Below the pieces are notes generated by a model. It ran no database searches. It worked only from the letters and a program-made list of their open reading frames with translations, and was not told the DNA's origin. The translations under genes were made by a program, and so were the position numbers. Below, piece after piece: positions 1,761 to 64,000 of a DNA stretch of 64,000 bases (the stretch's first letter is position 1; each line of letters begins with the position of its first letter). This DNA is from Naegleria gruberi (Eukaryota): the NCBI GenBank assembly GCA_000004985.1, contig GG738910.1. One strand, given 5' to 3'.

Positions 1761-1789
1761 AGTCACACACTACTGATGGATTGAAAAAA

Positions 1790-7981: not shown

Positions 7982-8189
7982 AAATTTATTAGGATCATCA
8001 ACATTACCAACAACAAATAATGATCAAATTATTGGTGCATATAAATTATTGAATAATTTATTATTATTAGAATCTAATCATTCAGAGCCTTCTCATCATC
8101 CACAACAACAACAACAACAAGTAAATGATAGTACTAGTACTTTTATTACTAATAATAGTAATTTACATAATTATGATCTTCCTTCTAAT

Positions 8190-8921
8190 ATGAATAAATC
8201 AGAATCTCAAGATTCAAAACATCAATTAACTAGTAATACTAACAATAATAATAAGAAAAGAAAGAATGATCACATTCAAACTAGTAATTCTAATAATAAT
8301 TCTAATAGTAATGTTAATAATAATTCTAATAGTAATGGTAATAATTCTAATAATTCTAATTCTAATTCTAATTATAATAATGGTAATAATACTAATAATG
8401 GTAACATGTCATTTATAGATGAAACTAATAATGTAACATTAAAAGCTAAAGTGAATCAACGAAATAATAATTTAAATATTAAACAATCAAGATTGAGAAA
8501 ACCATTACAAAATGATAAATTATTAAAAAATTATTTTGAATTTGATAAACAACAACAATCAAATGATTTAATTAAATTTAAATTAATTGATACTACTATT
8601 AATAATATAAATGGTAATATTAAAGATAATTATGTAAATACATTTAATAATAGAATTGGGTGTAGAAAACCATCTATTGATCAAATTATTACAAGTGAAA
8701 AAGTTACATTTAATAATATTATAAATAATAATTTAATTAATAATATTGTAGTATATGATAATAATGATCAACAAGATAATTATTCATTACCTAAAGAAGA
8801 AGAAGAAGCAGATAATTTATTAAATATTGAAGATGAATCAATTTTCAATAATATTGAATTAAATAATGAAAGTGATGGTAATAGTTTTATCAGTTCATTT
8901 TCATTTCTATTTAAAGAATAA
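8190..8921 (+). CDS. Fam1 member b: MSFIDETNNVTLKAKVNQRNNNLNIKQSRLRKPLQNDKLLKNYFEFDKQQQSNDL..., IGCRKPSIDQIITSEKVTF..., ending EEEEADNLLNIEDESIFNNIELNNESDGNSFISSFSFLFKE.
   Basis: The frame is open from the gap. The first ATG after the gap is at 8190 (MNKSES...) and the MSFIDE Met is at 8406. All three family motifs are present, so the 5' end is uncertain. Confidence 0.5.
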   Translation: MNKSESQDSKHQLTSNTNNNNKKRKNDHIQTSNSNNNSNSNVNNNSNSNGNNSNNSNSNSNYNNGNNTNNGNMSFIDETNNVTLKAKVNQRNNNLNIKQSRLRKPLQNDKLLKNYFEFDKQQQSNDLIKFKLIDTTINNINGNIKDNYVNTFNNRIGCRKPSIDQIITSEKVTFNNIINNNLINNIVVYDNNDQQDNYSLPKEEEEADNLLNIEDESIFNNIELNNESDGNSFISSFSFLFKE

Positions 8922-45429: not shown

Positions 45430-48400
45430 TTAAATGTTGGAAATTATTGCCTCACTCTTCTGATTTTCCTCATTTACATCCTCAAGAGATTCGAATTCTA
45501 TTATTGGATTTTCGTGGTGAATAGGTTGAATGAGATAGGTCTGACATTCTCCTTTTCCTTTCACCTGAACAATTCTCTCTTCGTAGGTGTACATATCATG
45601 TACTCTTTCATAGGTTGCTCTAGAAATTTGAATTCTTCCTGCTATTGAGGTTGATTCCATTCTTGAGGCAGTATTCACTGTATCACCCCACAAATCAAAT
45701 GCAAACTTTCTCTTTCCAATAACACCAGATGTAGCTGGTCCAGTATTGATACCAACACGGATATTAATTTGATGAGGAGGTATTAATTGTTGTTGATTAT
45801 TTTCAAATCTCTCTCTAATAAACTTCTCTATTGTTTTGGTATTGTAATTTTTGATAACTCCAAATGATTCACAAGCAAATTTACACATTCTTTCAGCATG
45901 ATCTGAATCTGGAAGTTCGTTGAGACCGGAAACTGCAAAATAAGCATCTCCAATAGTCTTGATTTTTTCAATATTATATTTCAATGTCAAATCATCAAAA
46001 CCATTAACAATTTCATTTAACAATCCTACCAATTCGTGGGAGGCCATGTTGGAAGACATTTGTGTGAATCCAACCATATCTGAGAAGAAACATGTAATGC
46101 AATTCAATTTCTCTGAAATAAAACTCTCTCCGGTAGAATTTTTCAACTTGTTAGCAACTGAGAAAGGTAGAATGTTTAGTAACAATTCTTCAGAGTGTTT
46201 CTTCTCATCCTGTAATAGGGCATTCTTTTTCTTCTCAGAGGTTTGATCAGCAATGAAACAAACAACCAACTCCTTTCCCTTATGCAGCACAACAAATATG
46301 CTAATCTTGCTTGGAAATTTCGTCTTGTTCTTTCTAATACATTCTCCTTCAAAAGTCTCTCCTGTGGAAACATCCTCGTTAGATTGATTGCTTCGTATAG
46401 ATTGCACTATTGCCTCTACGGATTTTTTTACCTTATCCTTAATAGCGTCCTCAAACAAATCGAATATTGATGTTCCTATGATTTCAGTCTTGTTGTATCC
46501 AAACATGGTTTGGGCAACTGGATTAAAGGCATCAATATCACCTTTTGAATTCCAACACATAGCTACTCCATCTATTGAGGCATTCAAAACAGATTGAATG
46601 ATAGAGGTATTGTTATCATTGAGAGCATATACCTTGTTAGATTTTGAGAAAGTCCTTTTTAAAGTAGCTGTGGCACCTGTGGATCTTGCCTTTGGATCTA
46701 CTTGATGGAATAAAATATAGTTTCTCAAGTCCTCAGAGCTTTCTATGGCATCTGTATTCAAATAGTTTAGAATCATTCTCAAAGAGTTAACTCCATCAGA
46801 ATAACTACTGAATTGCTTGTAAATAAAGAAGAATAATATTGTTATGAATGGAACAGTCACAATTCCAAAACCTGTGTCAAGTGAGAATAAGGGAACTGCC
46901 GCATAAATAGCAAATATACCTGAGAATTCTATCAATGTAGAGGACACATGTGTCATGTACAGTAAAACTTGGGCATACAGCTCGTGAACATCACTGGATT
47001 TTGATGAAACTTTTTGAGATAGCAAAACTGTCAAATCCAACATTGTAGCTACAACGGTGTCCATGCTTATTGTGCAATTGCTACCATATTTTTTCACTTC
47101 TTGAAAAGTACAGTTATCGTCTCCTCTAATTATCATATCGATTTCAGGGTACATGCCTATCACTAAAGTTTCGTCCTTCTTTGTTGAAGATCCATACATA
47201 CATAAATTCCAAAAATATCTTACTTTGGCCACCAATGGCTCTATTTCCGAATACAGGGCATAAACTTCTGAACTGGTTCTCAGTGGAGGGTTGATTATTG
47301 GCAAAGAGCTTGGAAGAGAGGTATGCATATACAGCTCTGTTACTGCAAAAATTAAATGTTGAAGATAATAGGCAGCGTCATTTGAATCTTTCATAGTAAC
47401 ATAGGATTGACGAGCATACACGCCGTTTCCAGTCATTTCCTCTACAAAAAGACCACAACTTAACGAAGTGAACACCAAAATACCAACAGCCGTGAATATT
47501 ACCAACATTCTTGGATTGAATACCTTACTGTATTCTATTTTAAGAGAAACATCTCTTCTACCATTTCTTGCATTCAACGAGTGATAAATTTTTCCAATAA
47601 TGTTTTTAGAAATAGACTTCTCATAAAGTTTGAAAATACTATCCGTAAATTTCAAATCCTTATAGACATAGTAAATAAATAATATTCCTAGTAGTAGATA
47701 AATGAATAAGAGACTAAAATACACTCCAATTATAATATACTGATACATAGCTCCATTATCGATTGATCTGTCCATATACTGGTTACAAAATGAATTAAAG
47801 GCCTGAATTACAGTGTCATTATTGTAGTATACCCACATAAATGCATAATCATCATATGTACTATTATGACCAGAATCTATAGAGCTGATCAGATCTGTGA
47901 CAGAGGATATGGCCATATTGGTAAAGTCAGCAATGGTGGCATTAATTTGAATGAAAGAAGTGAAAGATTGGTTATTACTACCGTACACAGTTTGAGGCTT
48001 GTAGAGAGGATAATACACTTCATGGAAATCAGAATATAAAGCAAGTGAAAACTTTCCATGACTGGCCATGTTTTTGATAGTTTGATAAGTATTAATGATG
48101 TCGTTAAGAGCGGCTCTATGACTCTGTTTATATTCGAGCACTGTTTCATATCCATAATCTTTCATCATCTGTGACCAATCAGATTCATTCTTATAGAGAT
48201 AGGAAAAGGCTTGGAAAGTTCTGACCTCAGATATTGTGTGAGTATTTGTAGAAATGGTGGAACATGAAGTAAATACAAGCATAACCTCAGAAGTTACCAT
48301 ATAGGAAAAGTAAATTGACATCGAAAGACAAACAGCAAAAAATAATAATGAAAATAAAACAAAAGCTACAAAAAGTGAACATCTGAAACTTGTAGAATGA

Positions 48401-50661
48401 GGAATAGCCAAATTGTTTCTGAACACGTCATTTCTGTTCTCAATCCCATCAAATGATTCCCCAACTACATTCATACTAGGATCTGATGCGTTATCATCTT
48501 CTGTTGCAGACATATTGAAGGCCTTGTTCTTTCTGTACATTGAATCTGAGCCACTAAATCTATATTTGGCCTTATTAGATACTGATCGCCTAACCTTTGC
48601 CTTCATTGCATTCTTTTCCTCTGCCTCTAACTTGATTGCCTCTGTGAATAATTCAGTTGCTTCTTCCTTGTTAAACATGAACGACTCTAAAAATTTTCCA
48701 TACGAAATAACTAAGTCCTTATCAGAAGGATATGCAGACAACAGATTATTGTAGGTAGTGTCAGAACTTTCAATAATTGAACCAATTTTAAGAACTGTAG
48801 CCTCTAGAATATTATAATTTACAATCTCATTCATTAATTCTTTCCATACATCTCTGTGCAGAGATCTCAAGATATCTTGTTGTAATTCCAGGTCTTCCAA
48901 ACTATTTTGAAGTTCATACCTTGTGGTTCCAGTTTCATTCTTGGCAATTTCTTTCAATTTTACATTAATTTGATATTTGTAGTAAAGGCCAGGTTTTCTT
49001 CTCTTAATTTTAGATAGTACTGATTTGGAAAAAGTTTGTGCGTTGGAATCGGCAATATTGACATTGGATATAATGGATGCAAAGAGAATGAGTAAACTGT
49101 AATCTGTGAATGAACTTTGAGTAGTAATTCCCTTGATAAATGCAATAGTTGCATCAACATCATAAACACTAACATTTCCACCAATTGATCTTATATAGGA
49201 GTTACTAAGAAAGGAAAATTTGAGAAAAAGGGCAAGAGATTTCTGGTATCCACTCTCCATAATACCTTGATAAAAGTAAAATGATCCAGACTCTAGTACC
49301 TTTAAGAAACTAAGGTCAGCTGCATTCTCATTACCATCTGTGGCTTCTTGGTTTGTAGTATTTTCGTCAGTGCTAGTACTGGCAAACTCTGAAATATTGT
49401 TCCTAATTAATTTCAAGTGACGTCTTACAACAAACTCAACAAACACACAATACGTAATACCAAATAAAACAGCTAGAACCAGAACAAAACAAGCAAGCCC
49501 TATCCCCAATCCATTATAGTCAAACGACGACTTTGGAACTGTGGTAAATAATATGTTTGAAACAAGTGCTGCCAAGGCTGCTCCAACTCTAGCTCCTAAA
49601 CCTATTCCGAACAATGAGTTATCAATTTTTTTGTAAAAAGGCATAGTTTTAAAATGAAGTATTGCCAATCCAATACTACATATCAAGTGTATAGCACTTC
49701 TTACGTATGAGTATTGAAAAGGTACCAACATTTGAACGCATAATTGTATCAAGGTTGTGGACTGCAAGCAGGCAATAATAATTGGACTCTCTGAAATGAA
49801 TGGGGTTGAATTGAGCATGTGACAATTTGTAGTAATAAAGAGGCAAACTCCATTCAAAATGATCAATAATATGGATGCCAATGAGAACACTATCGTAAAC
49901 AATATTTGTGTTTGCGACATTGACGAATAGCATGAAATTTTCTCATTTGGAAAACTAGTGAGTACACCTTGATCCAAATCACAATTGAAAATAGTATTCA
50001 TCATTACAAATAAGAATACGCTTGAACCAAGCAAAAATACTCTACATGAAATGGAAAAAACCTGTCTCAAATATGGCAGAAATTTCGAAGTAATCTTAAA
50101 GGCATACATTGATGCTCCTACAACACAACATAATATAAATACAAAACCAACTCCTACAAAGGAAATAACAACCGAGCCAATATAAGGAAGTCTATCCAAT
50201 GACAAACTTAATGGCCAGTTTAAAACGTTAGCCAACCATACTCCCCATTCTCCATATGTTGAGCTGGTCAAGCTTTCTCCTAAAACAGGCAAAAATATTC
50301 CAATATACAAAAAGTAAATATTCAAAACTAGGAAGAATATGTAATTCTTGTATCCTTTCTTCAATCCACCATCTTGAAAATAGAACAAATAGGAAAAAAA
50401 AGAGGAAAGTATTTTCTTTGCGTTGTACTGATTTGTTTGTAAACTAGTAGAGGTTGAAGCAACTGTACTAGTTTCGTTTGGATTACTCGTCTCGGCTGCT
50501 GGCGAAATTACACTACCAATAGCTATGGATGACATGGAAGAGTTCATATTAATGTTTTTAGTGGAGGGAGTCCTGTCAAATGCTGCTTTTGACACACCTC
50601 TTTCTAAAGGATGATGGCGATCCATTGTTTTTTTAGCCTTTGTTCTTTTGCCAACCATCAT
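45430..50661 (-). CDS. Multi-pass membrane class III adenylate cyclase (1743 aa): ~10 TM N-terminal block, additional TM segments with two large loops, a PAS domain, and a single C-terminal cyclase catalytic domain.
   Basis: Catalytic motifs: FFSDMVGFT (metal Asp), KIKTIGDAYFAVSGL (second metal Asp, substrate Lys), FAFDLWGDTVNTASRMES (substrate Asp, transition-state N/R). PAS: IDGVAMCWNSKGDIDAFNPVAQTMFGYNKTEIIGTSIFDLF. Single uninterrupted ORF from ATG. Confidence 0.75.
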   Translation of the reverse strand: MMVGKRTKAKKTMDRHHPLERGVSKAAFDRTPSTKNINMNSSMSSIAIGSVISPAAETSNPNETSTVASTSTSLQTNQYNAKKILSSFFSYLFYFQDGGLKKGYKNYIFFLVLNIYFLYIGIFLPVLGESLTSSTYGEWGVWLANVLNWPLSLSLDRLPYIGSVVISFVGVGFVFILCCVVGASMYAFKITSKFLPYLRQVFSISCRVFLLGSSVFLFVMMNTIFNCDLDQGVLTSFPNEKISCYSSMSQTQILFTIVFSLASILLIILNGVCLFITTNCHMLNSTPFISESPIIIACLQSTTLIQLCVQMLVPFQYSYVRSAIHLICSIGLAILHFKTMPFYKKIDNSLFGIGLGARVGAALAALVSNILFTTVPKSSFDYNGLGIGLACFVLVLAVLFGITYCVFVEFVVRRHLKLIRNNISEFASTSTDENTTNQEATDGNENAADLSFLKVLESGSFYFYQGIMESGYQKSLALFLKFSFLSNSYIRSIGGNVSVYDVDATIAFIKGITTQSSFTDYSLLILFASIISNVNIADSNAQTFSKSVLSKIKRRKPGLYYKYQINVKLKEIAKNETGTTRYELQNSLEDLELQQDILRSLHRDVWKELMNEIVNYNILEATVLKIGSIIESSDTTYNNLLSAYPSDKDLVISYGKFLESFMFNKEEATELFTEAIKLEAEEKNAMKAKVRRSVSNKAKYRFSGSDSMYRKNKAFNMSATEDDNASDPSMNVVGESFDGIENRNDVFRNNLAIPHSTSFRCSLFVAFVLFSLLFFAVCLSMSIYFSYMVTSEVMLVFTSCSTISTNTHTISEVRTFQAFSYLYKNESDWSQMMKDYGYETVLEYKQSHRAALNDIINTYQTIKNMASHGKFSLALYSDFHEVYYPLYKPQTVYGSNNQSFTSFIQINATIADFTNMAISSVTDLISSIDSGHNSTYDDYAFMWVYYNNDTVIQAFNSFCNQYMDRSIDNGAMYQYIIIGVYFSLLFIYLLLGILFIYYVYKDLKFTDSIFKLYEKSISKNIIGKIYHSLNARNGRRDVSLKIEYSKVFNPRMLVIFTAVGILVFTSLSCGLFVEEMTGNGVYARQSYVTMKDSNDAAYYLQHLIFAVTELYMHTSLPSSLPIINPPLRTSSEVYALYSEIEPLVAKVRYFWNLCMYGSSTKKDETLVIGMYPEIDMIIRGDDNCTFQEVKKYGSNCTISMDTVVATMLDLTVLLSQKVSSKSSDVHELYAQVLLYMTHVSSTLIEFSGIFAIYAAVPLFSLDTGFGIVTVPFITILFFFIYKQFSSYSDGVNSLRMILNYLNTDAIESSEDLRNYILFHQVDPKARSTGATATLKRTFSKSNKVYALNDNNTSIIQSVLNASIDGVAMCWNSKGDIDAFNPVAQTMFGYNKTEIIGTSIFDLFEDAIKDKVKKSVEAIVQSIRSNQSNEDVSTGETFEGECIRKNKTKFPSKISIFVVLHKGKELVVCFIADQTSEKKKNALLQDEKKHSEELLLNILPFSVANKLKNSTGESFISEKLNCITCFFSDMVGFTQMSSNMASHELVGLLNEIVNGFDDLTLKYNIEKIKTIGDAYFAVSGLNELPDSDHAERMCKFACESFGVIKNYNTKTIEKFIRERFENNQQQLIPPHQINIRVGINTGPATSGVIGKRKFAFDLWGDTVNTASRMESTSIAGRIQISRATYERVHDMYTYEERIVQVKGKGECQTYLIQPIHHENPIIEFESLEDVNEENQKSEAIISNI

Positions 50662-52136: not shown

Positions 52137-53528
52137 ATGCAAAGACTTGTCACATGGATTCTTGTTTGTCTGTGCTTGGTGACTTGTAATGCAAATATGG
52201 CTAGTGGTGTTGAGCAGAACAGGAATGTGAGAAAATATCATAATAATATCAAAGCTGGGAGCACTTCATCATATGTTCAGCCTGGCATTAATAATTCTTT
52301 ACAACCTCTGTTTGGACATAATATTGGATTAATTACTAACCCGTCTGGACAAAATTATCAATTATCACAATCAACAATTGATTTACTGATGGAGTTGACA
52401 AAACAGGGCTATTTGAATTTGGTTGCACTTTTTGCTCCCGAACATGGAATTTATGGTGACAAGCCTCCAGGGCAATTCTTTAATGATTATATTGACCCAT
52501 ACACTAAATTACCTGTTTATAGTTTATATAGTGAAACTAATCCGACTCATGAACCACTTCCTTACATGTTGAAAAATGTTACAATGCTAGTTTCGGATAT
52601 TCAAGATGTTGGAATGAGACCTTTCACGTTCATTAGTACAATGTGTGAAGGATTAATTGGAGCAAAGAAAAATTCAATCAAGTTCACAGTTTTGGATAGA
52701 ATTAATTATTTGAATGGAAACATTATAGCTGGTCCAATTTTGAATATGAAATACAAAAGTTTTATTGGAATTTATAAATTACCAATTGTAACTGGTATGA
52801 CTATGGGCGAATTGGCTCTATTGTTTGACAAGGAAATGTATATTAATTTAGACAATGATCTAACAATTATTCCAATAGTAGATGATAGTTCTCAAACCTA
52901 CGGGAAATACAGACCTTCATTCAGAGAAATAAGACAAGTATTCAGACAACCAATATTATATCTACCACCAAGTCCAAATTTGCCAACAATAGAAAGTGTA
53001 GAGTTGTACTCTGGAATGGTCTTGTTTGAAAGTCTGTTCAACATATCTATTGGAAGAGGAACAACAAATCCATTCCAAGTCATTGGTTCTCCATTCATTG
53101 ATTCAAGAAAATGGATGAGCTTTTTGCAACAAGAATTTGCTACAGAACTATCTCTCTATTTCAAATACGTTCAGCTTTCATATCCCACTTATTTTATTCC
53201 ATCTCTTGATATCCACCAGAATGCTCCATGTGAGGGAATTCGTTTAGTGTTAAAACCACTCGATTACAACAATATTACAAACATTGAAGAGTACTATAGA
53301 AGCTTTTTACCCCTCTCTCTTACCCTCATGAAATCTTTACTCAAACTTTACGGAAAGGAATTGCTAATTTGGAGAACTGATTTTGCTCATATTCTCATTG
53401 GATCTGAAGAAACAATATCACAAATATTGGACAATTCTGTGACAGTGGGAGAGATTGTCAATTCATGGAATAAGGATCTTGTCAAGTTCGACAAGAATGT
53501 CAGGCAAAAGTATTTAATTTACAAATGA
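52137..53528 (+). CDS. Secreted DUF1343 / NamZ-like protein (463 aa) with N-terminal signal peptide. Bacterial-type exo-beta-N-acetylmuramidase family.
   Basis: Family motifs: IGLITNPSGQN, LVALFAPEHGIYGD, LPVYSLYSETNPTHEPLPYML, MLVSDIQDVGMRPFTFISTM, FTVLDRINYLNG, IYKLPIVTGMTMGELALLFDKE. Signal peptide MQRLVTWILVCLCLVTCNA. Confidence 0.6.
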   Translation: MQRLVTWILVCLCLVTCNANMASGVEQNRNVRKYHNNIKAGSTSSYVQPGINNSLQPLFGHNIGLITNPSGQNYQLSQSTIDLLMELTKQGYLNLVALFAPEHGIYGDKPPGQFFNDYIDPYTKLPVYSLYSETNPTHEPLPYMLKNVTMLVSDIQDVGMRPFTFISTMCEGLIGAKKNSIKFTVLDRINYLNGNIIAGPILNMKYKSFIGIYKLPIVTGMTMGELALLFDKEMYINLDNDLTIIPIVDDSSQTYGKYRPSFREIRQVFRQPILYLPPSPNLPTIESVELYSGMVLFESLFNISIGRGTTNPFQVIGSPFIDSRKWMSFLQQEFATELSLYFKYVQLSYPTYFIPSLDIHQNAPCEGIRLVLKPLDYNNITNIEEYYRSFLPLSLTLMKSLLKLYGKELLIWRTDFAHILIGSEETISQILDNSVTVGEIVNSWNKDLVKFDKNVRQKYLIYK

Positions 53529-54969: not shown

Positions 54970-56107
54970 ATGACTGAACCAACACCAGTCGATATCACAC
55001 AAATCCCACCACTATCTCATTCCACCAAGGTTGCCTTAATATCTGGTGTTACTGGACAAGATGGATCCTATCTTGCTGAATTACTTTTAGATAAAGGATA
55101 TACTGTATATGGCATGATTAGACGTTCATCATCTTTTAATACAGGAAGAGTTGAACACCTCTATAAGGATGTTCATATTGTTGATGCGAGTAAGTTTAAC
55201 ATTTTATTATTGCTTAGTTTAATTAGAGTTTAAACTTGTGTACGGTGATTTAACTGATACTGGTAACATTATATCTATCATTTCAAAGATAAGACCTGAT
55301 GAAATATACAACCTGGGAGCTCAATCTCATGTTAAAATAAGCTTTGAAATGCCTGAATACACAGCAAATGTTGATGGTATTGGTACCTTACGATTTCTTG
55401 AAGCAATCCGAGCATGTGGTTTGGAAACGAAGACAAGATTTTATCAAGCAAGCACATCAGAGTTGTATGGCTTGGTACAAGAAATTCCTCAAAAAGAAAC
55501 TACTCCATTTTATCCTCGATCTCCTTATGCTTGCGCTAAGTTGTACAGTTACTGGATTGTTATTAACTATAGAGAAGCTTATAACATGTTCGCCTTGAAT
55601 GGTATTCTTTTCAATCATGAAAGTATCCGTAGAGGTCCAACCTTTGTAACAAGAAAAATCACAATGGCAGTAGCTCGTATTCATCTAGGTCTTCAAGAGT
55701 GCTTGTATTTGGGTAATTTGGATGCTGAAAGAGATTGGGGCCACGCAAAGGATTACGTTGAGGCTATGTGGTTGATGCTCCAACAAGAGAAGCCATCAGA
55801 CTATTGTGTTGCCACTGGAGAAAAGCACAAAGTTAGAGAATTTGTTGAAAAATCGTTTGCTGTTCTTGGTAAGAAGGTTGAATGGAAAGGAAAGTCAGGA
55901 ACTGTTGATGAATATGGTGAAGTTGATGGTGCTGTTAGAATTAGAGTTGACCCTCGTTATTTCAGACCAACCGAAGTTGAATTATTAATTGGAGACCCAA
56001 CAAAGGCCGAAACTGAATTAGGATGGAAGAGAAAAGTCAGCTTTGAGGAACTAGTAAAAGGAATGGTAAAAGGAGACGTGGAGTTATTGGGTAGCCAATG
56101 TAACTAG
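54970..56107 (+). CDS. gmd: GDP-mannose 4,6-dehydratase, 2 exons (54970..55189, 55227..56107). Intron 55190..55226 (GTAAGTTTAACATTTTATTATTGCTTAGTTTAATTAG).
   Basis: Motifs: [24 protein letters not shown] (NADP-binding GxxGxxG), [40 protein letters not shown] (Yxxx K), FNHESIRRG. The junction ...[14 protein letters not shown] restores the conserved sequence. Confidence 0.85.
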
Positions 56108-56282: not shown

Positions 56283-57377
56283 ATGAACTCGATAAAAAAT
56301 TACCCCATTTTACCCCACAAAATATTAGGGTTACAACGAACACTCCTAAAAAAAATGCAAAAAAGACTAATATTTGTTGTAGTTTCAATCTTAATAATAG
56401 GAGTAATTTTTCTCTATTATTCTAATCTTTCTCGGAATGATAACCAAGCCAATAATGTTGTCATCTCAACTAAGGTCAGAGAACAAACATCTTCACAAGA
56501 ACCAAAAGTCATTGAAAAGATAATTGAAAAGACAATAGAAATACCTTTAGAAAAGATTGTTGAAAAGATAATTGAAAAACCGTGTGCCACAAGTCAAACC
56601 AACGATGATAACTTGTCCAAATTTTCACAATTGTTAAAAAATGATCAATTAAAATCAATTGAACTGACTAAACAAATCTTAAGTGGAAATGTTAAAAATC
56701 CAGCAGTTCATTTAGTAACTCAATTATTTGGAGGTATGCAAAACGATCATTATGTGGATATGTTGGCAGCAATTCAATTAAATCTTTTCAATCCATTTGT
56801 TGAAAAAGTTCACCTCCTTCAAGAGAATGATGCAAACGATAAAGATTTAAAGAAGTTAATTGGACAAGAAAAACTTGTCATTCACATGCTAGGTCATCGT
56901 ATTACAGTTGGTGATTTTATGAGATATTGTAATGACAAATTACCACAAAAAATTGTAGGACTCATTAATACTGATGTTTATTTTGATAATACCCTAGTTG
57001 AGTTCCATAGAATGCCATATCAAACTGCATATGTTATTTCAAGAAAGGAAACTCTAGTTGGTAATAAGCCAGATCCAATTAATAATAGAGATCAATGTGG
57101 TGGATATCAAGGTTCACATGATGCATTCATTTTCAGGAATACGGATAAATTTGGAGATTCAATCATCGACAAGTTAAATAATACTAATTTGGGATATATG
57201 GGCAGTGAAAATGTTATTTTATATTATTTGAAACGTGATTCTAATAGATATAGAATTTCAAATCCATGTTATGCTGTTAATTTATTCCACTTGCATAGAA
57301 ATAGATCAGAGAAGGAGGTTAAAAGATTTAATGGTGGAGGTATTTCTGATACACAGAACCCATCTGGAGATTTTTAG
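56283..57377 (+). CDS. Type II membrane protein (signal-anchor VVVSILIIGVIFLYY). Lumenal domain of unknown family, possibly a Golgi glycosyltransferase. Likely start at ATG 56355.
   Basis: Uninterrupted ORF. A-rich context before ATG 56355. No diagnostic GT motif recognised. Confidence 0.4.
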   Translation: MNSIKNYPILPHKILGLQRTLLKKMQKRLIFVVVSILIIGVIFLYYSNLSRNDNQANNVVISTKVREQTSSQEPKVIEKIIEKTIEIPLEKIVEKIIEKPCATSQTNDDNLSKFSQLLKNDQLKSIELTKQILSGNVKNPAVHLVTQLFGGMQNDHYVDMLAAIQLNLFNPFVEKVHLLQENDANDKDLKKLIGQEKLVIHMLGHRITVGDFMRYCNDKLPQKIVGLINTDVYFDNTLVEFHRMPYQTAYVISRKETLVGNKPDPINNRDQCGGYQGSHDAFIFRNTDKFGDSIIDKLNNTNLGYMGSENVILYYLKRDSNRYRISNPCYAVNLFHLHRNRSEKEVKRFNGGGISDTQNPSGDF

Positions 57378-57502: not shown

Positions 57503-60500
57503 TTATTGTTGTGGTTGTCTTGGCTCTAATTCTAAAGACCTATCCCACAATGTATCTTCATCAACAAGTTGAATGTTTCCAAGAGAAAGTAAGGATTGGA
57601 TAGAAGGATTGGTTGAAACTCCACTAGTGTAAAGTTTGTAATCCTCCAAAGTTACTGTTTGGATTTGATTGATAATTCTCTTGATGAAATCAACAGTTTC
57701 GAAATAGTAAGGTTGCATTTGATATTGTCTAATTTCTAAAATAATTTTAGAAACTTGTCTTCGTTTGAATACGTTGATTAGGCCATCACGAATATAGTCT
57801 GGATTACCATCGTTGATGAATGTTAAATCTTTCAGATACATGCTTAATGGAGGAATGCATGGAGGGAGGCAAAGTTGAAGAGCTTGTCTCATGTTCTTGT
57901 TTGCTTGCTCTTGAGAGCACAATTTCTTCAAATCCTCATACAATGTCAAGTACTCTGTTGGAACTGTTGCCCAAGTCTTTTTCAATCTGTAAACAGAAAC
58001 ATTGGATAAACCGCTGAGTATTTCTGAAAGACCATGGAAATTATTGATATCTCTTAATGCATTTGCCAACTCTATAAATTTGATAATGTATCTTCTTCTA
58101 ATTTTGAGATCATTTTGTGAAAGAATAGAACATGCAACAAATTGAGTCATCTTATTCCATCGATCAGTCAAGTGGGCAATATTTGGAGCTTCGTCATATT
58201 TTGAAGATTTTGTCCAGGCACCACTAAGGCATTCCTTTGGTTCAATCTTTTGGAAATATTCGTATTCAATGAGTGTGATTTGTCTTGCGATTTCAATTGG
58301 GCTCCATTCGAGAATATTAAAGGCAACATGTTCACTAAAGTTTTCTGGAATAATAGGGTCAGGAACATCAGTTTGTTTAGCATGTTTAACAGCCTTATCG
58401 TTATCTTTGATCAGCTTGTTACTGAGCGTTTTTCTGAGAGCATTGCAGAAGGAAGAAAATTCTTTGATATTTGCAACTGAATCCAAAAATTGAATCAAAC
58501 GAACAAGCAATAAATTATCAAAATCATGGAAATACTTTTCGACCCACATTTTAACAGCATTGATAACTCTGAGGAGTACTTTAGTGTTGGCTTCTGGTTG
58601 AATATCTTGCTTTTTCTGTTCTTCAGCAATATTGAATCTGTCAATTAACTTATCCATTAGGACATGGCTAGAACAGAAGGAACGATAGGTGAGGAAGAAG
58701 ACATCTCTGAACTTTGGGTCCGTTTCCTTGTCGCTGGTGATTTTTTCAATAAGCTTGTCAAGAGTAGCTGCTTTGATTTGATTATTCTCCACTACATAGT
58801 TCTTCTCAGAGTCTTCAGTAAGGATAAGCTTCTCGTGATTTTTCTCAATGTTCTCTAATTTGGCTTGGTGAGATATCAAGAGGCAGTCAATACTTTCAAG
58901 GATATATGATTCATTTTCTGATTGTGATAGTGGGAAGCAACAAACAGACAATAGAGTACCTAAAGCCCATTTCCATCTGTCGTCATGAATATCAATGCTG
59001 AAAACAGGAATAAGCTTTTGTACAATTGTAACGAATAAAGGAGTTAACATGGTATTTGTCAACATTGGATCCATTCTCTTTCTTACATTTTCAGCATCTT
59101 GTGAAGATTGGTTGAATTGCTCAATATATTTCATAATTAAAAGCAATACCTCCTCGATAACAGGAGAATATTTTTCGTTTTCCATAATCATCAATTCCCA
59201 TTTTTGTTCAATGAAACAGACCAAAATTTCAATAACAATTGTTTTGATCATTCTTCTAGTAACCCTGACAGGATATGCAATGTGCTTGTTAATGGCAATC
59301 GAAAGAAGTTTTACAAAACTAACGAGCACATCTGGAGACTTGTGGTTCCAAATCTCAGGCCATTCTTCTTTCTTTCTATTTCTCAAACAGTGAACAAACG
59401 AAACAGCAAAGTGAGACTGAAGATCATTGTCCATATTTCTTAATAATTTTTCTACATGGGCAATCTCAAAGAAAAGTGGCATTACTAGTTTGCAAATTTC
59501 ATTTCTAGAATCAGCAGAGCTAAACTTTGTTAATGAGTCTAGCTTTACAATTAATCTATTAATTATTCTCAGAGTTATTGTTCTTAAATCTGGTTTGTTG
59601 GCCTTTTGTAAGATACCAATAACAAACTTTAGAAGAAATGGTGTTTCACTACACATGTTAACTTCTACAAATATGCTTGAGTCAATTATAATTTCAGCAA
59701 AATCAAACTTTAGACCCACCACAACAGGAGAAGATTTGAATTGTGTTGTAAGTACATAATCATTGAGGGCTGTCTTGACAAATTTTCTAAATCTAACATC
59801 ATCTTTCATTTCTTTCATTAGTGAAATTTCCAATAAATCACACATGAACAAGGCCAAGTGCCTATTGACAACCTTAACAAAATGTAACTTGATAGGGTCG
59901 CCTGAGGCTGTGAGTAGTCTTTCCATCAATTTTGTTTGTAAGCTTCTCATCTTGGTGTAGAAAACTTCTGTAAATACGTCTTGTTTCTTTCCCTCCAAAA
60001 TGTAGAGTTTCATTGATTTGACAAGTGTATCAAACAAAAACCAAGAAAGTTTCAATGAGTCCAAAGCATTAATTTCTTCAACAGTGCTTTCTTGGCTTTC
60101 TGATGATTGGTTAGAGCGTGGTTTAGAGAAGTAGGTTGCTCTTCTTGGTCTATTGGCTACGCTATCGTTTGTAGAAGAAGAAGCTCCTGAACTTTCTGTA
60201 GTATTCGAGTTTGATTCTTTGGTTCTACTCTCTGTTTCTTTGGTATGACATGATTTGAAGAATTCTTCCCATCTTTCTGCCAACAGTAAACAAAAGCTTG
60301 TATTATCTGGCGTTGGAGGATTTTTGAACATGTAATAAATATATCCATTCAAAAATTGATCTCTCTCATAATAATCTAATCTGGAATTACTTCTCATACC
60401 TCTCAACATGTGGAGAAGAGTTTCAAAGACTAGCAATGAAAGGGAGGTTGTGGTTGTTGATGTTGATGTTGTTGTCTCTTTCACAGATTCAACATTTTTA

Positions 60501-63500
60501 GTTCTGGAGGTGAGAGTGGCTGTTCTCTTTTTTACAAATCCAGCAATACCTAGAGTTTTCTCAGATACAGAGTTATTGTTTTGAATTTCTGAACTTGTAG
60601 AATTCTGCAAAGAGGCTGTTTTAACATTAGCAATAATGTACATTACACAATTCAAAAATACAGGGAAATGATAAAGCATTTGAGACCAATGAGCTTTCTG
60701 GAAGTTTTTCAAAATACTTTCAGCATCAGAAAGTGACATGGCATCATTCAATTGACTCAAAAAGGAACCCTTTGGTAAATTATTGTTCTTTGAATTAATG
60801 AAAAGCCCAGAGTTTGTTAATAAAGATACAGCATTCTTGTCTGATGGGAAAATTGATGATTTGGCAATAACATTAAATCTAAAAATGGATTTTCCATTAG
60901 CATACTTTTGTAAAGACTTATCAGAAAGATAATTGTTTGGTAAAGTTGTGCACTTATATATTGGTAATTTTTTCATACCATTCTTAAATCCTTCATCTTG
61001 GACCAGTTTCAGAATAGAGAAGCCAATCACTGTAGTATCAGCTTTTCCAACTACACCTGATACTGGTTGACCTCTCTTGGAGGAAACATGTCTAAATTCA
61101 AAAACTAAATGATGGTTATCATGAATAGGGAATGGAAGTTGAATTTTGATTTGGTCAAAGAACAGAGGATACTTTTCGTGATAAGTAATACTGGATATGG
61201 CTTGTTGCTTAATATCCATACCTCCAATATAGTTTCTACTTCCTTCAGAGAAAATTCTACTAGCTCCAACAAGAACGCCTCCACTCATTTCATCATTTTC
61301 TCTTAACAAAACTCTAACGGCAACTGATTTGTAAGAATTTGGAAGTGATGTCATATTGATGTTATCAAGTAAAATATACAAAACATGATTGAATGTTAAA
61401 TCTAACTTTGGTGCTGTTGTGAAGAGAGTTGTGGATTTTGAAGAATGAGAAAAAGTATTGAAAGACATGGTTATGGTTTCATCATCATCAAATGTGAAGG
61501 AATCAGCATTGTCTTCTGAGACAGAAACAGCTTTAACTTCATGCACTCCAGTATCATAGAGTGGCCTAACTTGATGATATTTAGAAATATTATCAGGATT
61601 ACTATCAATAAGCATTGTAAATTTTGCAGAAATATTTTTGAAAGTAATATTGTCAACTTTTAAAGTTCCTTTCTGTTTGGAGTAGTCTCTTTGGTGTTCA
61701 ATGAGACTAGAAACATTGCACCTTTGTTTCTTTCCATCTAAGTGAGGGACAACAAATAGCTTGTCAAAGATAATTGCTCCTTTTCTCACTTCATATGTTG
61801 GTGGCTCTTCAATGCTTACTTTGAGTTCATTAGATGTGACAGATTCTCGTTTTTCCTCAAAGAGAGGCTCGACGGCACAGATCAGAGGGGATTTAAATTG
61901 ATCCAAGAACGAGTAAGCTGTTTTAAGTTTTTCCAAGTATGATTTTTTAGATGATTCATCAATCTTTTTCTTTGCTAGATAGGTATTATCAACATATGAG
62001 TTATCTGAGAATATTCTCTTAACCCAGAGAACTAGATAAATGTTTGGATTCTTATCCTTCACAGAAAATATAGCCTTCATCTTGGCCTCTGTACTAAGTA
62101 AATCTTTAGGGAAAGATTTTTCAATTCCCAATTGGGTAAGAGTTCCCATACCAGTGTTCAAAGTAAAATTGAACTCTTCTGAAATTCTTGATTCTGTCTT
62201 TTTATCATACAGATACAGTGTCGCATAGAGTGGTTCCAGATTAATATCAGTATTTTCAAATATTAAACCTTTGGCATTGATGAGAATTTTGAGAGATTGA
62301 TCGACTTGGAAAGGATTTGAAGGTATTCCTCTCTTGCAAACATCCTCTTCCAAATTTGACAGTCTATAAAAAGGGTTATAGATTGAGGCAACTCTATTTG
62401 AAGTTTCTTCATACATCTTTTCGGATACTTCTCGGAAGTTTAACTCTGTGTTAACAATTTCTTCTTCTTCCTCTTCTTCTACATCAACTTCTAATGTTTC
62501 AAGATCGACATCACTTCTTCTTGGGTCAACTAAACTACTACCACTATTGGTCAAAATCATTCCCAAACCAGTATTGGAAGCAGATGAATACTTGCCTCCT
62601 AAATATTCTTGTGAGTTGACAGAAAGATAATTCGTTGAAATTGGAGAAAATGATGAACTGGCAGGAGGAGCAACATTCACAGTTGGGTTGGAAAGTACAT
62701 TATTGGTAGTGTTACTTCTAGCTTTAAGTCTTTTTGGAGTAAGAGGTAGAGAGGCACTTGGAGTAAGAGATGGTTTGTAAGGTGAATCATCAATTCTAAT
62801 CTGATTGGCTGATAGTGGAGCAGAAATTGGTACAATTGTACTTCCGATTTGTGAGCTAATAAGTAAATTACAAGTGGTTGATGTAGAATCAGACAATTGC
62901 TTTCCTGTAATTGGATTCAATCCAGCCTTTGCGCTCATCTCCAAATCCCAATCCAATTGATTTTTAATTTTCGAACCATCTAAATTATTATTATTAATTC
63001 TAACAATTTGTTTTTCATCTAGAATTAATCGTGTTGCAAATTGAAGAGCAGGATGATCGGAAAGTGAATTATTAAGAATTTGTCTAATAGATTCATCATT
63101 ATTTGATGTTAGTACATCATTAAAGTGGATTGGTAAATTCTCATGAACCATCTCTATGAAATTATCTGGTGGTGAAAAGAGAGGATGTTCCACAAAATCA
63201 TCAGATTGTTTTGGTCGACTTGTAACTGGTACATTTGTTGTTGCTGTTGTTAGACCATTAGTATTATTACCTGTTGTACTAGTGGTTGTTGATGAATTAT
63301 TGTTTCTACATTCTGTATTTTCCTTCTGTGGTGATACTTGTTGTTGATCAACTTCATTTTCTTGTGAGAAGACTTTAACTCCAACAGCCGATGATGCTGC
63401 AAGAGGAGAAGAATTCTTGAAGGAAGATGATTTGCTGTTGGTGTTGGTGGAGGAGGCAGACGATGGGGTATTAGAAGGTCTGGGGGATCTAGGAGTCAAA

Positions 63501-63940
63501 TTTGCTGATTCAAACCTGAGAGCACTTGGTAATCTCTTCAGATTGGAGTTTGATGCTGCTGCCAAGTGATTGCCTCTTGGAGAGGAATAGGAAGATGGTT
63601 GTCCATTTGGTGAATGATCGTTTTCCACAACTTTTGGCAAATTGTGTAATTGTAACTTGTGTTGGAGCATGATTTGAGAAAGGGACTGTTGTTTCACTTC
63701 CACTGGTACCAAATTATCCATTGTTTGATTTGTTGTTGTTGTTGTTTGATTATTGTTATTTGGAGATGGAGTATTTTCCTCATCATCACTTTCAATAGAT
63801 TGAATATCATTTAAACTTTCATCGTCAACATAATCGTCATGTGATGGATAAAATTCCTCTTGTTCCTTCTTTTGTTGTTCTGTTTTGTGAAAGAAATTAT
63901 CTAATAGAAATCTTTGGAAAATACAAACCTGCAATTTCAT
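57503..63940 (-). CDS. Large RasGEF (2145 aa): S/T/N-rich N-terminus, C2/DOCK DHR-1-like region, armadillo-like helical region, RasGEF N-terminal (REM) domain and a C-terminal Cdc25-homology RasGEF catalytic domain.
   Basis: Cdc25 domain: FNILEWSPIEIARQITLIEYEYFQKIEPKECL...PNIAHLTDRWNKMTQFVACSIL...NNFHGLSEILSGLSNVSVYRLKKTW...LPPCIPPLSMYLKDLTFINDGNP. REM: LDKLIEKITSDKETDPKFRDVFFLTYRSFCS. DHR-1-like: ...YPLFFDQIKIQLPFPIHDNHHLVFEFRHVSS...VIGFSILKLVQDEG (coding at ~61080-61140). Single ORF from ATG. Confidence 0.75.
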   Translation of the reverse strand: MKLQVCIFQRFLLDNFFHKTEQQKKEQEEFYPSHDDYVDDESLNDIQSIESDDEENTPSPNNNNQTTTTTNQTMDNLVPVEVKQQSLSQIMLQHKLQLHNLPKVVENDHSPNGQPSSYSSPRGNHLAAASNSNLKRLPSALRFESANLTPRSPRPSNTPSSASSTNTNSKSSSFKNSSPLAASSAVGVKVFSQENEVDQQQVSPQKENTECRNNNSSTTTSTTGNNTNGLTTATTNVPVTSRPKQSDDFVEHPLFSPPDNFIEMVHENLPIHFNDVLTSNNDESIRQILNNSLSDHPALQFATRLILDEKQIVRINNNNLDGSKIKNQLDWDLEMSAKAGLNPITGKQLSDSTSTTCNLLISSQIGSTIVPISAPLSANQIRIDDSPYKPSLTPSASLPLTPKRLKARSNTTNNVLSNPTVNVAPPASSSFSPISTNYLSVNSQEYLGGKYSSASNTGLGMILTNSGSSLVDPRRSDVDLETLEVDVEEEEEEEIVNTELNFREVSEKMYEETSNRVASIYNPFYRLSNLEEDVCKRGIPSNPFQVDQSLKILINAKGLIFENTDINLEPLYATLYLYDKKTESRISEEFNFTLNTGMGTLTQLGIEKSFPKDLLSTEAKMKAIFSVKDKNPNIYLVLWVKRIFSDNSYVDNTYLAKKKIDESSKKSYLEKLKTAYSFLDQFKSPLICAVEPLFEEKRESVTSNELKVSIEEPPTYEVRKGAIIFDKLFVVPHLDGKKQRCNVSSLIEHQRDYSKQKGTLKVDNITFKNISAKFTMLIDSNPDNISKYHQVRPLYDTGVHEVKAVSVSEDNADSFTFDDDETITMSFNTFSHSSKSTTLFTTAPKLDLTFNHVLYILLDNINMTSLPNSYKSVAVRVLLRENDEMSGGVLVGASRIFSEGSRNYIGGMDIKQQAISSITYHEKYPLFFDQIKIQLPFPIHDNHHLVFEFRHVSSKRGQPVSGVVGKADTTVIGFSILKLVQDEGFKNGMKKLPIYKCTTLPNNYLSDKSLQKYANGKSIFRFNVIAKSSIFPSDKNAVSLLTNSGLFINSKNNNLPKGSFLSQLNDAMSLSDAESILKNFQKAHWSQMLYHFPVFLNCVMYIIANVKTASLQNSTSSEIQNNNSVSEKTLGIAGFVKKRTATLTSRTKNVESVKETTTSTSTTTTSLSLLVFETLLHMLRGMRSNSRLDYYERDQFLNGYIYYMFKNPPTPDNTSFCLLLAERWEEFFKSCHTKETESRTKESNSNTTESSGASSSTNDSVANRPRRATYFSKPRSNQSSESQESTVEEINALDSLKLSWFLFDTLVKSMKLYILEGKKQDVFTEVFYTKMRSLQTKLMERLLTASGDPIKLHFVKVVNRHLALFMCDLLEISLMKEMKDDVRFRKFVKTALNDYVLTTQFKSSPVVVGLKFDFAEIIIDSSIFVEVNMCSETPFLLKFVIGILQKANKPDLRTITLRIINRLIVKLDSLTKFSSADSRNEICKLVMPLFFEIAHVEKLLRNMDNDLQSHFAVSFVHCLRNRKKEEWPEIWNHKSPDVLVSFVKLLSIAINKHIAYPVRVTRRMIKTIVIEILVCFIEQKWELMIMENEKYSPVIEEVLLLIMKYIEQFNQSSQDAENVRKRMDPMLTNTMLTPLFVTIVQKLIPVFSIDIHDDRWKWALGTLLSVCCFPLSQSENESYILESIDCLLISHQAKLENIEKNHEKLILTEDSEKNYVVENNQIKAATLDKLIEKITSDKETDPKFRDVFFLTYRSFCSSHVLMDKLIDRFNIAEEQKKQDIQPEANTKVLLRVINAVKMWVEKYFHDFDNLLLVRLIQFLDSVANIKEFSSFCNALRKTLSNKLIKDNDKAVKHAKQTDVPDPIIPENFSEHVAFNILEWSPIEIARQITLIEYEYFQKIEPKECLSGAWTKSSKYDEAPNIAHLTDRWNKMTQFVACSILSQNDLKIRRRYIIKFIELANALRDINNFHGLSEILSGLSNVSVYRLKKTWATVPTEYLTLYEDLKKLCSQEQANKNMRQALQLCLPPCIPPLSMYLKDLTFINDGNPDYIRDGLINVFKRRQVSKIILEIRQYQMQPYYFETVDFIKRIINQIQTVTLEDYKLYTSGVSTNPSIQSLLSLGNIQLVDEDTLWDRSLELEPRQPQQ

Positions 63941-64000
63941 TGACAGTTTTTAATAATACAACTGGAAATTGTCGTAAATTATCAAGAAGTTGGTCTAAAT

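What the first reader, a model, noticed from the sequence alone, without database searches (positions are those of the whole stretch)
57503..63940. RasGEF carrying a DOCK DHR-1-like C2 region: a Cdc25-family GEF on a DOCK-like scaffold
The C-terminal third is an unambiguous REM + Cdc25-homology RasGEF. The middle of the protein, coding at ~60800-61200, contains a segment strikingly like the lipid-binding DHR-1/C2 domain of DOCK-family RhoGEFs: ISSITYHEKYPLFFDQIKIQLPFPIHDNHHLVFEFRHVSS...GFSILKLVQDEG. Compare the DOCK core HL[LR]FTF[RY]H[RV]S. An earlier C2-like start (LYATLYLYDKKTESRISEEFNF) and a long helical region follow. DOCK proteins normally pair DHR-1 with a DHR-2 Rho/Rac GEF domain. Here the catalytic module would instead target Ras/Rap. 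That would couple the PIP3/membrane-targeting logic of DOCKs to Ras activation. This is a plausible but, to my knowledge, unusual architecture.
Basis: partly seen in the sequence, partly recalled or inferred. Interest (0 to 1): 0.6.

Follow-up and report, generated by a model that had tools for sequence, protein, structure and literature searches.

The report
DOCK scaffold fused to a RasGEF
This Naegleria gruberi gene encodes most of a DOCK-type Rho-GEF scaffold (two C2-like domains and a helical arm), but a SOS-like Ras exchange module replaces the usual DOCK catalytic domain, a conserved and apparently undescribed domain swap in excavate protists.

Summary
One uninterrupted frame encodes, in order: a low-complexity N-terminus, a first C2 (DHR-3-like) domain, a full DOCK DHR-1 domain (Pfam DOCK-C2, E=1e-31), a DOCK-homologous ARM solenoid (profile-profile E=5e-41 on its own), a conserved helical spacer, then REM + Cdc25 (E=4e-23 and 2e-60). 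The catalytic module is SOS-like by sequence and by predicted fold. No DHR-2 is present.

The organism is Naegleria gruberi, not a dictyostelid. The gene is annotated there only as "rasGEF domain-containing protein". The ATG at 63940 is not the true start. A 49-nt intron lies at 63880-63928, and exon 1 runs off the window.

The architecture is conserved in N. fowleri, Willaertia magna, the jakobid Andalucia godoyi and several uncultured relatives. None of these proteins carries DHR-2.

Most likely it is a membrane-associated GEF for a Ras-subfamily GTPase, built on a DOCK-C-type chassis. The "PIP3 logic" is not supported: only one of the three basic residues that DOCK8 uses to bind PI(4,5)P2 is retained. 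I found no paper describing this combination. It is a new variant of known kinds, of moderate interest.

The parts
63929..64000 (-). 3' part of exon 1 (encodes ...LDQLLDNLRQFPVVLLKTVNEIA plus the first base of a split Glu codon). The true start codon lies beyond the window end.
   Evidence: Frame-2 translation of the window end matches aa 36-58 of the annotated N. gruberi protein P0181.
63880..63928 (-). 49-nt intron (GTTTGT...AACAG)
   Evidence: Sequence read. Removing it joins exon 1 to EQQKKEQEE exactly as in P0181.
57503..63879 (-). Exon 2, the rest of the coding sequence including the TAA stop at 57503-57505
   Evidence: Uninterrupted ORF. 2125/2125 aa identical to P0181 aa 59-2183.
62333..63879 (-). 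Low-complexity Ser/Asn/Thr-rich N-terminal region (ORF aa 21-536), net charge -26, no domain detected
   Evidence: No Pfam hit. Composition. Only 40% identical to the N. fowleri-type orthologue.
61568..62293 (-). First C2-like beta-sandwich (ORF aa ~550-791), homologous to the C2/DHR-3 domain of DOCK-C proteins
   Evidence: phmmer to DOCK6 chain 261-386, i-E 1.5e-8. hhalign of the pre-C2 region to DOCK8 251-492, E=2e-27. Beta-sandwich in the AF2 model, residues 14-255, pLDDT about 80-90. Domain name from PMC13503879.
60836..61396 (-). DHR-1 (Pfam DOCK-C2) domain, ORF aa 849-1035
   Evidence: Pfam E=1.2e-31. DOCK8 DHR-1 (7clx) E=1.2e-13 and DOCK6 i-E 6.5e-11. hhalign E=1.7e-40. Foldseek to 7cly, 7clx and 3l4c, target TM 0.68-0.70.
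59288..60835 (-). ARM/TPR helical solenoid homologous to the DOCK-C/D ARM region (ORF aa 1036-1551), with two disordered low-complexity inserts
   Evidence: hhalign of the post-C2 region alone: aa ~1071-1551 to DOCK8 751-1318, probability 100%, E=5.1e-41. Precomputed PF28208 TPR_DOCK9 on the N. gruberi protein. Full-length Foldseek alignments to DOCK5, E=4e-17.
58841..59287 (-). Conserved helical spacer between the DOCK-homologous ARM and REM (ORF aa 1552-1700)
   Evidence: Not significantly DOCK-like (E=0.21). 75% identical to the N. fowleri-type orthologue, more than the ARM. Confidently helical, pLDDT 83-93.
58499..58780 (-). REM (RasGEF_N) domain, ORF aa 1721-1814
   Evidence: Pfam E=3.7e-23. 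Aligned with SOS1 REM.
57758..58294 (-). Cdc25-homology RasGEF catalytic domain, ORF aa 1883-2061
   Evidence: Pfam E=1.9e-60 over the full profile. SOS1 catalytic unit i-E 4e-53, with the PPCIP, GNPD, KRR and QYQxQPY motifs aligned. Foldseek to SOS1/SOS2 REM-Cdc25, target TM 0.72-0.81 at about 30% identity.

Best explanation
The gene encodes a multidomain exchange factor with the chassis of a DOCK-C/D-type Rho-GEF: a first C2/DHR-3 domain, the DHR-1 C2 domain and an ARM solenoid. The DHR-2 catalytic domain has been replaced by a SOS-like REM + Cdc25 module.

Shown here: the domain order, the homology of each part, the absence of DHR-2, an apparently intact Cdc25 core, strong conservation of the scaffold, and the presence of the same architecture in Heterolobosea and a jakobid.

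Inferred: the two positively charged beta-sandwich domains and the ARM solenoid position and regulate the protein at a membrane, as they do in DOCKs. There the REM-Cdc25 module would catalyse GDP release on a Ras-subfamily GTPase. Ras, Rap or another Ras-like target cannot be resolved. The output of a DOCK-style input and regulatory platform would then go to Ras-type rather than Rac/Cdc42 signalling. The DOCK dimer interface (DHR-2 lobe A) is gone, so any oligomerisation or autoinhibition must use other surfaces, such as the ARM or the conserved spacer.
For: Pfam finds DOCK-C2, RasGEF_N and RasGEF and no DHR-2, even at E<=10. PDB sequence search gives SOS1/SOS2 E~1e-52 to 1e-55, and DOCK6 in three colinear stretches. 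The family profile against a DOCK-C/D profile gives probability 100%, E=3e-100, aligning aa 537-1675 to DOCK8 241-1504. The pre-C2, C2 and post-C2 regions are each significant alone, at 2e-27, 1.7e-40 and 5e-41. AF2 model 1 (pLDDT 76, pTM 0.72) shows two beta-sandwiches and a solenoid, with DOCK5 as top Foldseek hit (E=4e-17) and the DOCK8 and DOCK180 DHR-1 domains at target TM ~0.7. AF2 model 2 (pLDDT 83, pTM 0.75) matches SOS REM-Cdc25 at target TM 0.72-0.81. Among the top 150 relatives, 14 cluster representatives carry RasGEF, 84 carry DHR-2, and none carries both. Identity to the N. fowleri-type orthologue is 65% for DHR-1, 64% for ARM, 75% for the spacer, 65% for REM and 79% for Cdc25, against 40% for the N-terminus. 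DHR-1 has net charge +8 and the first C2 +5.
Against: No biochemical data exist. The canonical DOCK-C PI(4,5)P2 pocket is only one-third conserved in the Naegleria/Willaertia clade: N860, L866 and K871 correspond to DOCK8 R570, K576 and R581. In DOCK8 the single K576A mutation abolished binding in pull-downs. Lipid binding may therefore be weak, different in specificity, or lost. Substrate specificity cannot be read from the sequence. The DOCK NTD (PF11878) was not detected.
Confidence: 0.72

Rival explanations
1. The DOCK-derived scaffold no longer targets lipids. It is kept as a protein-interaction, oligomerisation or autoinhibition platform for the RasGEF, analogous to the ARM-ARM and DHR-1/DHR-2 contacts that autoinhibit DOCK6. 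Membrane recruitment would come from elsewhere, for example the disordered N-terminus or binding partners.
For: Two of the three PI(4,5)P2-binding basic residues of DOCK8 are replaced by Asn and Leu, and the Naegleria/Willaertia clade has only one basic residue in the L1 loop. The ARM and spacer are as conserved as REM. DOCK6 uses its N-terminal region and ARM for autoinhibition (PMC13503879).
Against: The most critical position (the R581 equivalent) is still Lys, and it is basic in 9 of 12 family members. Both beta-sandwich domains are net positive. Most other family members keep two basic residues in the loop.
Confidence: 0.2
2. The Cdc25 domain is a catalytically dead pseudo-GEF, and the protein acts only as a scaffold or GTPase-binding adaptor.
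For: No direct activity data. Some hairpin positions differ from SOS1 (by my own numbering, SOS1 L938 and E942 correspond to Thr and Asp in the alignment).
Against: The Pfam match covers the full profile at 204 bits. It is the most conserved region between species, at 79%. The LTFxxxGNPD-type hairpin motif is the common form in active Cdc25-family GEFs (own knowledge). REM is retained, and the fold matches SOS at target TM ~0.8.
Confidence: 0.05
3. The architecture is an assembly or annotation artefact that joins a DOCK gene fragment to a neighbouring RasGEF gene.
For: None beyond the general frequency of such artefacts. The window does contain an assembly gap elsewhere.
Against: The ORF is continuous across all domains. 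The same order is found in independent assemblies of N. fowleri, Willaertia, Andalucia and several metagenomic contigs, each as a single ORF. The C2-to-REM spacing is broadly similar across the family.
Confidence: 0.01

Closest known systems
DOCK-C subfamily (DOCK6/7/8, Drosophila Zir), together with DOCK-D (zizimins) and plant SPIKE1
   Same: Same order of first C2 (DHR-3), DHR-1 and ARM solenoid. Best sequence matches are DOCK6 and DOCK8. The HHL[LV]F.F.HVS core of DHR-1 is present. TPR_DOCK9 matches are precomputed.
   Different: No DHR-2 (lobes A-C), so no Rac/Cdc42 catalytic site and no lobe-A dimer interface. No detectable NTD (PF11878) or PH domain. Only 1 of 3 PI(4,5)P2-binding basic residues is kept. 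The C-terminus is REM-Cdc25.
SOS1/SOS2, RasGRF1 and yeast Cdc25 (Ras-specific Cdc25-family GEFs)
   Same: REM + Cdc25-homology catalytic unit. About 30% identity to the SOS catalytic unit, target TM 0.72-0.81, conserved motifs.
   Different: No histone fold, DH-PH, IQ or proline-rich regulatory regions. A DOCK scaffold supplies the regulatory and targeting part instead.
Dual-module GEFs that combine Rho-GEF and Ras-GEF elements (SOS and RasGRF with DH-PH + Cdc25; Dictyostelium GefC with DH + RasGEF, PMC1273635)
   Same: One polypeptide combines parts of a Rho-GEF family with a Cdc25 RasGEF.
   Different: Those proteins use the Dbl (DH) family and keep the Rho-GEF catalytic domain. Here the partner is the DOCK family and its catalytic domain has been lost.
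Dictyostelium DocA-D/ZizA-D and Gef proteins
   Same: Amoeboid protists with expanded DOCK and RasGEF repertoires.
   Different: The gene is not dictyostelid. Dictyostelid surveys list 8 DOCKs and 27-29 RasGEFs and mention no such hybrid in the text I could read (PMC8923023, PMC1273635). The one dictyostelid hit here is a normal DHR-2 DOCK.

Membership tests
DOCK (CZH) family GEFs | DHR-1 / C2 DOCK-type domain | tested here: met
   Pfam PF14429 E=1.2e-31, full profile. Fold match to the DOCK8 and DOCK180 DHR-1 domains.
DOCK (CZH) family GEFs | DHR-2 catalytic domain (lobes A, B, C) | tested here: not met
   No PF06920, PF20421 or PF20422 hit at E<=10. No phmmer hit to the DOCK8 DHR-2 in any RasGEF-bearing member. 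The sequence after the ARM is fully accounted for by the spacer, REM and Cdc25.
DOCK (CZH) family GEFs | ARM/TPR solenoid following DHR-1 | tested here: met
   hhalign E=5.1e-41 for the post-C2 region alone. PF28208 precomputed. DOCK5 full-length fold alignment.
DOCK-C subfamily | Additional N-terminal C2 (DHR-3) domain before DHR-1 | tested here: met
   DOCK6 261-386 i-E 1.5e-8. hhalign E=2e-27. Beta-sandwich in the model.
DOCK-C/D subfamilies | N-terminal domain DOCK_C-D_N (PF11878), or a PH domain in DOCK-D | tested here: not met
   No Pfam hit. hhalign alignments begin at about DOCK8 position 235.
DOCK-C subfamily | Three basic PI(4,5)P2-binding residues in beta1 and the L1 loop (DOCK8 R570, K576, R581) | tested here: inconclusive
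   The equivalents are N860, L866 and K871, so only one is basic. The mapping rests on a pairwise alignment through a loop.
Cdc25-type RasGEFs | Cdc25-homology catalytic domain | tested here: met
   PF00617 E=1.9e-60, profile 1-181 of 181. SOS fold, target TM up to 0.81.
Cdc25-type RasGEFs | REM (RasGEF_N) domain upstream of Cdc25 | tested here: met
   PF00618 E=3.7e-23.
Cdc25-type RasGEFs | Conserved helical-hairpin and core motifs | tested here: met
   PPCIP...YLKDLTFINDGNPDY...INVFKRRQVSKII..IRQYQMQPY aligned to SOS1 PPCVP...YLTNILKTEEGNPEV...INFSKRRKVAEIT..IQQYQNQPY.
Cdc25-type RasGEFs | Nucleotide-exchange activity on a Ras-subfamily GTPase | not testable with these tools
   Requires biochemistry.
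Dictyostelium Gef family (orthology) | An orthologue with the same architecture in D. discoideum | tested here: inconclusive
   None among the named hits. Only the top 150 of 359 hits could be inspected and most carry no taxon label.

The most novel reading that the evidence does not exclude
This is the founding example of an old, Discoba-wide class of 'DOCK-scaffold RasGEFs'. The fusion would predate the Heterolobosea-Jakobida split. The C2-DHR-1-ARM chassis of DOCKs would then be a portable membrane-sensing and autoinhibitory platform, able to drive an unrelated catalytic domain. In these amoeboflagellates, part of what DOCKs do for Rac/Cdc42 in other eukaryotes would be wired to Ras instead.
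Probability: 0.3. Interest if true: 0.65.

Novelty: new variant of a known kind. Interest (0 to 1): 0.5.

Why it matters
DOCK GEFs are described as having an invariant core of DHR-1 plus DHR-2 (Fort & Blangy 2017, PMC5499878). A conserved family that keeps the whole DOCK chassis but swaps DHR-2 for a Cdc25 module shows that the scaffold can be separated from its catalytic domain. It offers a natural experiment on what the C2-DHR-1-ARM platform contributes by itself: targeting, autoinhibition or oligomerisation. It also marks a candidate link between phosphoinositide or membrane cues and Ras activation in Naegleria. That genus's motility is studied as an independent origin of fast amoeboid crawling, and it includes the pathogen N. 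fowleri, which has a 62%-identical orthologue. The finding is still a domain rearrangement of known modules in a protist lineage rich in such rearrangements, and automatic pipelines already annotate the individual domains.

Tried and rejected
(1) Two single-sequence homologous-protein searches (aa 540-1720 and aa 540-1035) returned nothing. The exhaustive HMMER search and a later profile query did find relatives, so those blanks were index failures, not absence.

(2) Exact look-ups of the 2145-aa ORF failed, because its first 20 residues are intron read-through.

(3) I first dismissed the GT..AG at 63880-63928 as an intron because it breaks the frame of the ATG at 63940. The annotated protein showed that exon 1 is in another frame, so the intron is real.

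(4) Dictyostelid origin was rejected.

(5) A single origin for all RasGEF-bearing members could not be established. BLOSUM62 NJ gives one exclusive clade of 12. Kimura NJ splits off P0006 + P0031, and bootstrap support for all 12 together is 4/100. The shared end point of DOCK homology, at DOCK8 ~1312-1327 in 10 of 12, and the high REM-Cdc25 scores of P0006 and P0031 relative to SOS1 favour a common origin for the core group. P0009, P0016, P0018 and P0021 remain open.

(6) I tested whether the spacer (aa 1552-1700) is a remnant of DHR-2 lobe A. There was no significant match, only a colinear match to DOCK8 1415-1475 at E=0.21.

(7) Literature searches for the domain combination, in Dictyostelium, in Naegleria and generically, found no description.

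(8) Three overlapping ~2000-aa ORFs at 1781-8921 turned out to be a run of N.


Full report
**What is in the sequence.** The minus strand of window 57503..63940 holds one uninterrupted 2145-codon frame. GC content is 31-40%. A Pfam scan of the translation gives three matches above threshold:
- DOCK-C2 (PF14429) at aa 849-1035, covering profile positions 3-186 of 187, at 110.5 bits against a gathering score of 33.6 (E=1.2e-31).
- RasGEF_N (REM) at aa 1721-1814 (E=3.7e-23).
- RasGEF (Cdc25 homology) at aa 1883-2061, covering the whole profile (E=1.9e-60).

No DHR-2 lobe model matches, even at E<=10.

**Gene model and organism.** A profile search returned a protein 100% identical over the whole query, named "rasGEF domain-containing protein [Naegleria gruberi]". 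It has 2183 aa, and its precomputed Pfam hits are RasGEF, RasGEF_N, DOCK-C2 and PF28208 TPR_DOCK9. Its residues 59-2183 equal ORF residues 21-2145 exactly. Its N-terminus is encoded by an upstream exon in a different frame (...LDQLLDNLRQFPVVLLKTVNEIA, window 63998-63929). That exon is joined across a 49-nt GTTTGT...AACAG intron at 63880-63928. About 35 codons lie beyond the window. The ATG at 63940 and the first 20 residues of the naive ORF are therefore intron read-through.

The next relatives are an N. fowleri-type protein and a Willaertia magna protein. The first is 62% identical over the scaffold, and its 90% cluster includes KAF0979352.1, auto-named "C2 DOCK-type domain-containing protein". 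The second is 42% identical. The neighbouring genes fit that picture: a PAS-adenylate/guanylate cyclase, a U-box-VWA-ankyrin protein, and short intergenic spacers.

**How much of a DOCK is present.** Sequence search against solved structures gives SOS1/SOS2 for the C-terminus (E~1e-52). For the rest it gives human DOCK6 in three colinear stretches:
- ORF aa ~546-676 to DOCK6 261-386 (i-E 1.5e-8).
- DHR-1 to DOCK6 552-729 (i-E 6.5e-11).
- A weak stretch in the helical region.

DOCK8 DHR-1 scores E=1.2e-13, while DOCK1 DHR-1 reaches only 0.03, so the affinity is with the DOCK-C/D branch. The DOCK6 cryo-EM paper names the parts in order: NTD, C2 (DHR-3), DHR-1, ARM, DHR-2 (PMC13503879).

I built a 12-sequence profile of the pre-REM region of the family and compared it with a profile of 24 DHR-2-bearing DOCKs, numbered on carp DOCK8. 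The result was probability 100%, E=3e-100, aligning aa 537-1675 to DOCK8 241-1504. The C2 might have carried that score, so I repeated the comparison on separate pieces at default stringency:
- Pre-C2 aa ~551-780 to DOCK8 251-492, E=2e-27.
- DHR-1, E=1.7e-40.
- Post-C2 aa ~1071-1551 to DOCK8 751-1318, E=5.1e-41.

The last ~150 residues before REM (aa 1552-1700) are not significantly DOCK-like (E=0.21) and show no match to DHR-2 lobe A.

**Structure predictions.** An AlphaFold2 model of aa 537-1720, built with the family alignment (mean pLDDT 76, pTM 0.72), shows two beta-sandwiches followed by a long helical solenoid with two disordered inserts. Its best Foldseek matches in the PDB are full-length DOCK5 chains (E=4e-17 to 1e-14, about 1250 aligned columns). 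Next come the DOCK8 and DOCK180 DHR-1 crystal structures (target TM 0.68-0.70).

A second model, of aa 1400-2145 (pLDDT 83, pTM 0.75), shows the spacer as confidently helical (pLDDT 83-93) and continuous with a REM-Cdc25 unit. That unit superposes on SOS1/SOS2 catalytic units at target TM 0.72-0.81 and about 30% identity. Residue-level alignment to SOS1 (i-E 4e-53) keeps the core motifs PPC[IV]P, GNP[DE], KRR and QYQxQPY.

**A family, not a one-off.** Among the top 150 of 359 relatives of the scaffold in a 1.8-billion-protein library, 14 cluster representatives carry a RasGEF domain, 84 carry DHR-2, and none carries both. Pfam confirms DOCK-C2 + RasGEF_N + RasGEF in every full-length member tested. 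Several also have precomputed TPR_DOCK9 hits. Each is a single ORF on an independent contig from a different sample.

Taxon labels exist for N. gruberi, N. fowleri, Willaertia magna and the jakobid Andalucia godoyi (ANDGO_07803). One further member comes from a metagenome of a terrestrial cyanobacterial culture. The architecture is thus present in at least two deep Discoba lineages.

Whether all members descend from one fusion is not settled:
- A BLOSUM62 NJ tree on DHR-1 + ARM recovers the 12 as one exclusive clade among 105 sequences.
- A Kimura-distance NJ tree separates P0006 + Andalucia, and bootstrap support for all 12 together is only 4/100. Naegleria + Willaertia get 92/100.
- In 10 of 12 members DOCK homology ends at the same template position (DOCK8 ~1312-1327), 135-185 residues before REM. 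This end point may partly reflect where the DOCK profile itself loses conservation.
- The REM-Cdc25 units of P0006 and Andalucia score 287 and 278 bits against the window's, well above SOS1 (189) or an ordinary Balamuthia RasGEF (196).

Taken together, the last two points favour a common origin for the core group. Four divergent members remain open.

**Constraint.** Against the N. fowleri-type orthologue, identity is 51% for the first C2, 65% for DHR-1, 64% for the ARM, 75% for the spacer, 65% for REM and 79% for Cdc25. The low-complexity N-terminus is only 40% identical. The DOCK-derived parts are therefore maintained about as strongly as REM. The spacer between ARM and REM is conspicuously conserved, which suggests a functional interface.

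**Likely mechanism.** By analogy with DOCKs, the tandem beta-sandwiches (net charge +5 and +8) and the ARM solenoid should position and regulate the protein at a membrane. The REM-Cdc25 unit should catalyse GDP release on a Ras-subfamily GTPase. This step is inferred, not shown.

Lipid specificity in particular should not be assumed. DOCK8 binds PI(4,5)P2 through R570, K576 and R581, and single K576A or R581A mutations abolish binding in pull-downs (PMC7893821). The equivalents here are N860, L866 and K871, so only the most critical position is still basic. Most other family members keep two basic residues in that loop, but the Naegleria/Willaertia clade keeps one. A scaffold that now serves mainly autoinhibition or protein interaction, as the N-terminal region and ARM do in DOCK6, is a serious rival. 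Loss of lobe A also removes the conserved DOCK dimer interface.

**Comparison and novelty.** By definition this is not a DOCK GEF, because DHR-2 was tested and is absent. It is a bona fide member of the Cdc25 RasGEF family by domain criteria, carrying a DOCK-C-type chassis. Fort & Blangy describe DOCKs as having a conserved DHR-1/DHR-2 core with at most an SH3 or PH domain added, in contrast to the shuffling seen in Dbl GEFs (PMC5499878). This family is an exception to that statement. Full-text searches found no paper mentioning the combination. The Dictyostelium RasGEF surveys do not report it. Automatic pipelines already place the individual domains on the N. gruberi and N. fowleri proteins, so the novelty lies in recognising and interpreting the architecture. 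I rate it a new variant of known kinds, with moderate interest (0.5).

Noticed in passing
window ~2670 to ~8000: A long run of N (assembly gap). The three overlapping ~2000-aa ORFs listed at 1781-8020(+), 2619-8921(+) and 2635-8016(-) are artefacts of it. Only the 5' edge was read directly.
   Followed up: partly
window 52137-53528 (+): A 463-aa ORF with full-length NamZ_N + NamZ_C matches (E=1e-58 and 3e-28). NamZ is an exo-beta-N-acetylmuramidase of bacterial peptidoglycan recycling. In a Naegleria genome this is a candidate horizontal transfer, or a bacterivory-related enzyme.
   Followed up: no
window 45430-50661 (-): A 1743-aa protein with TPR_TmcB, PAS and an adenylate/guanylate cyclase catalytic domain. 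It looks like a member of the PAS-cyclase expansion typical of Naegleria (own knowledge).
   Followed up: no
window 41203-45285 (-): A 1360-aa protein combining an N-terminal U-box or MIZ-type zinc finger, a VWA domain and many ankyrin repeats.
   Followed up: no
window 55238-56107 (+): GDP-mannose 4,6-dehydratase. The ORF starts at profile position 58 of 332 with a GTG, so an upstream exon and intron are likely. The adjacent 364-aa ORF at 56283-57377 has no Pfam match.
   Followed up: no
window 58841-59287 (-), ORF aa 1552-1700: The helical spacer between the DOCK-homologous ARM and REM is 75% identical to the N. fowleri-type orthologue, more than the ARM itself. It is modelled with high confidence but has no detectable homologue. 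It may be the family-specific interface between scaffold and catalytic unit.
   Followed up: partly
window ~58450-58680 (-), ORF aa ~1790-1831 (REM): In the SOS1 alignment, the residues I recall as forming the SOS allosteric Ras-GTP site (L687, R688, N691) are identical here, and W729 is Phe. Similar residues occur in REM domains without known allostery, so this is only a lead.
   Followed up: no
L001/L002 (protein P0003): A family member sits on a 284-kb eukaryotic contig from a metagenome of a non-axenic terrestrial cyanobacterial culture (PMC8354539). It presumably comes from an uncharacterised amoeba living in that culture.
   Followed up: no
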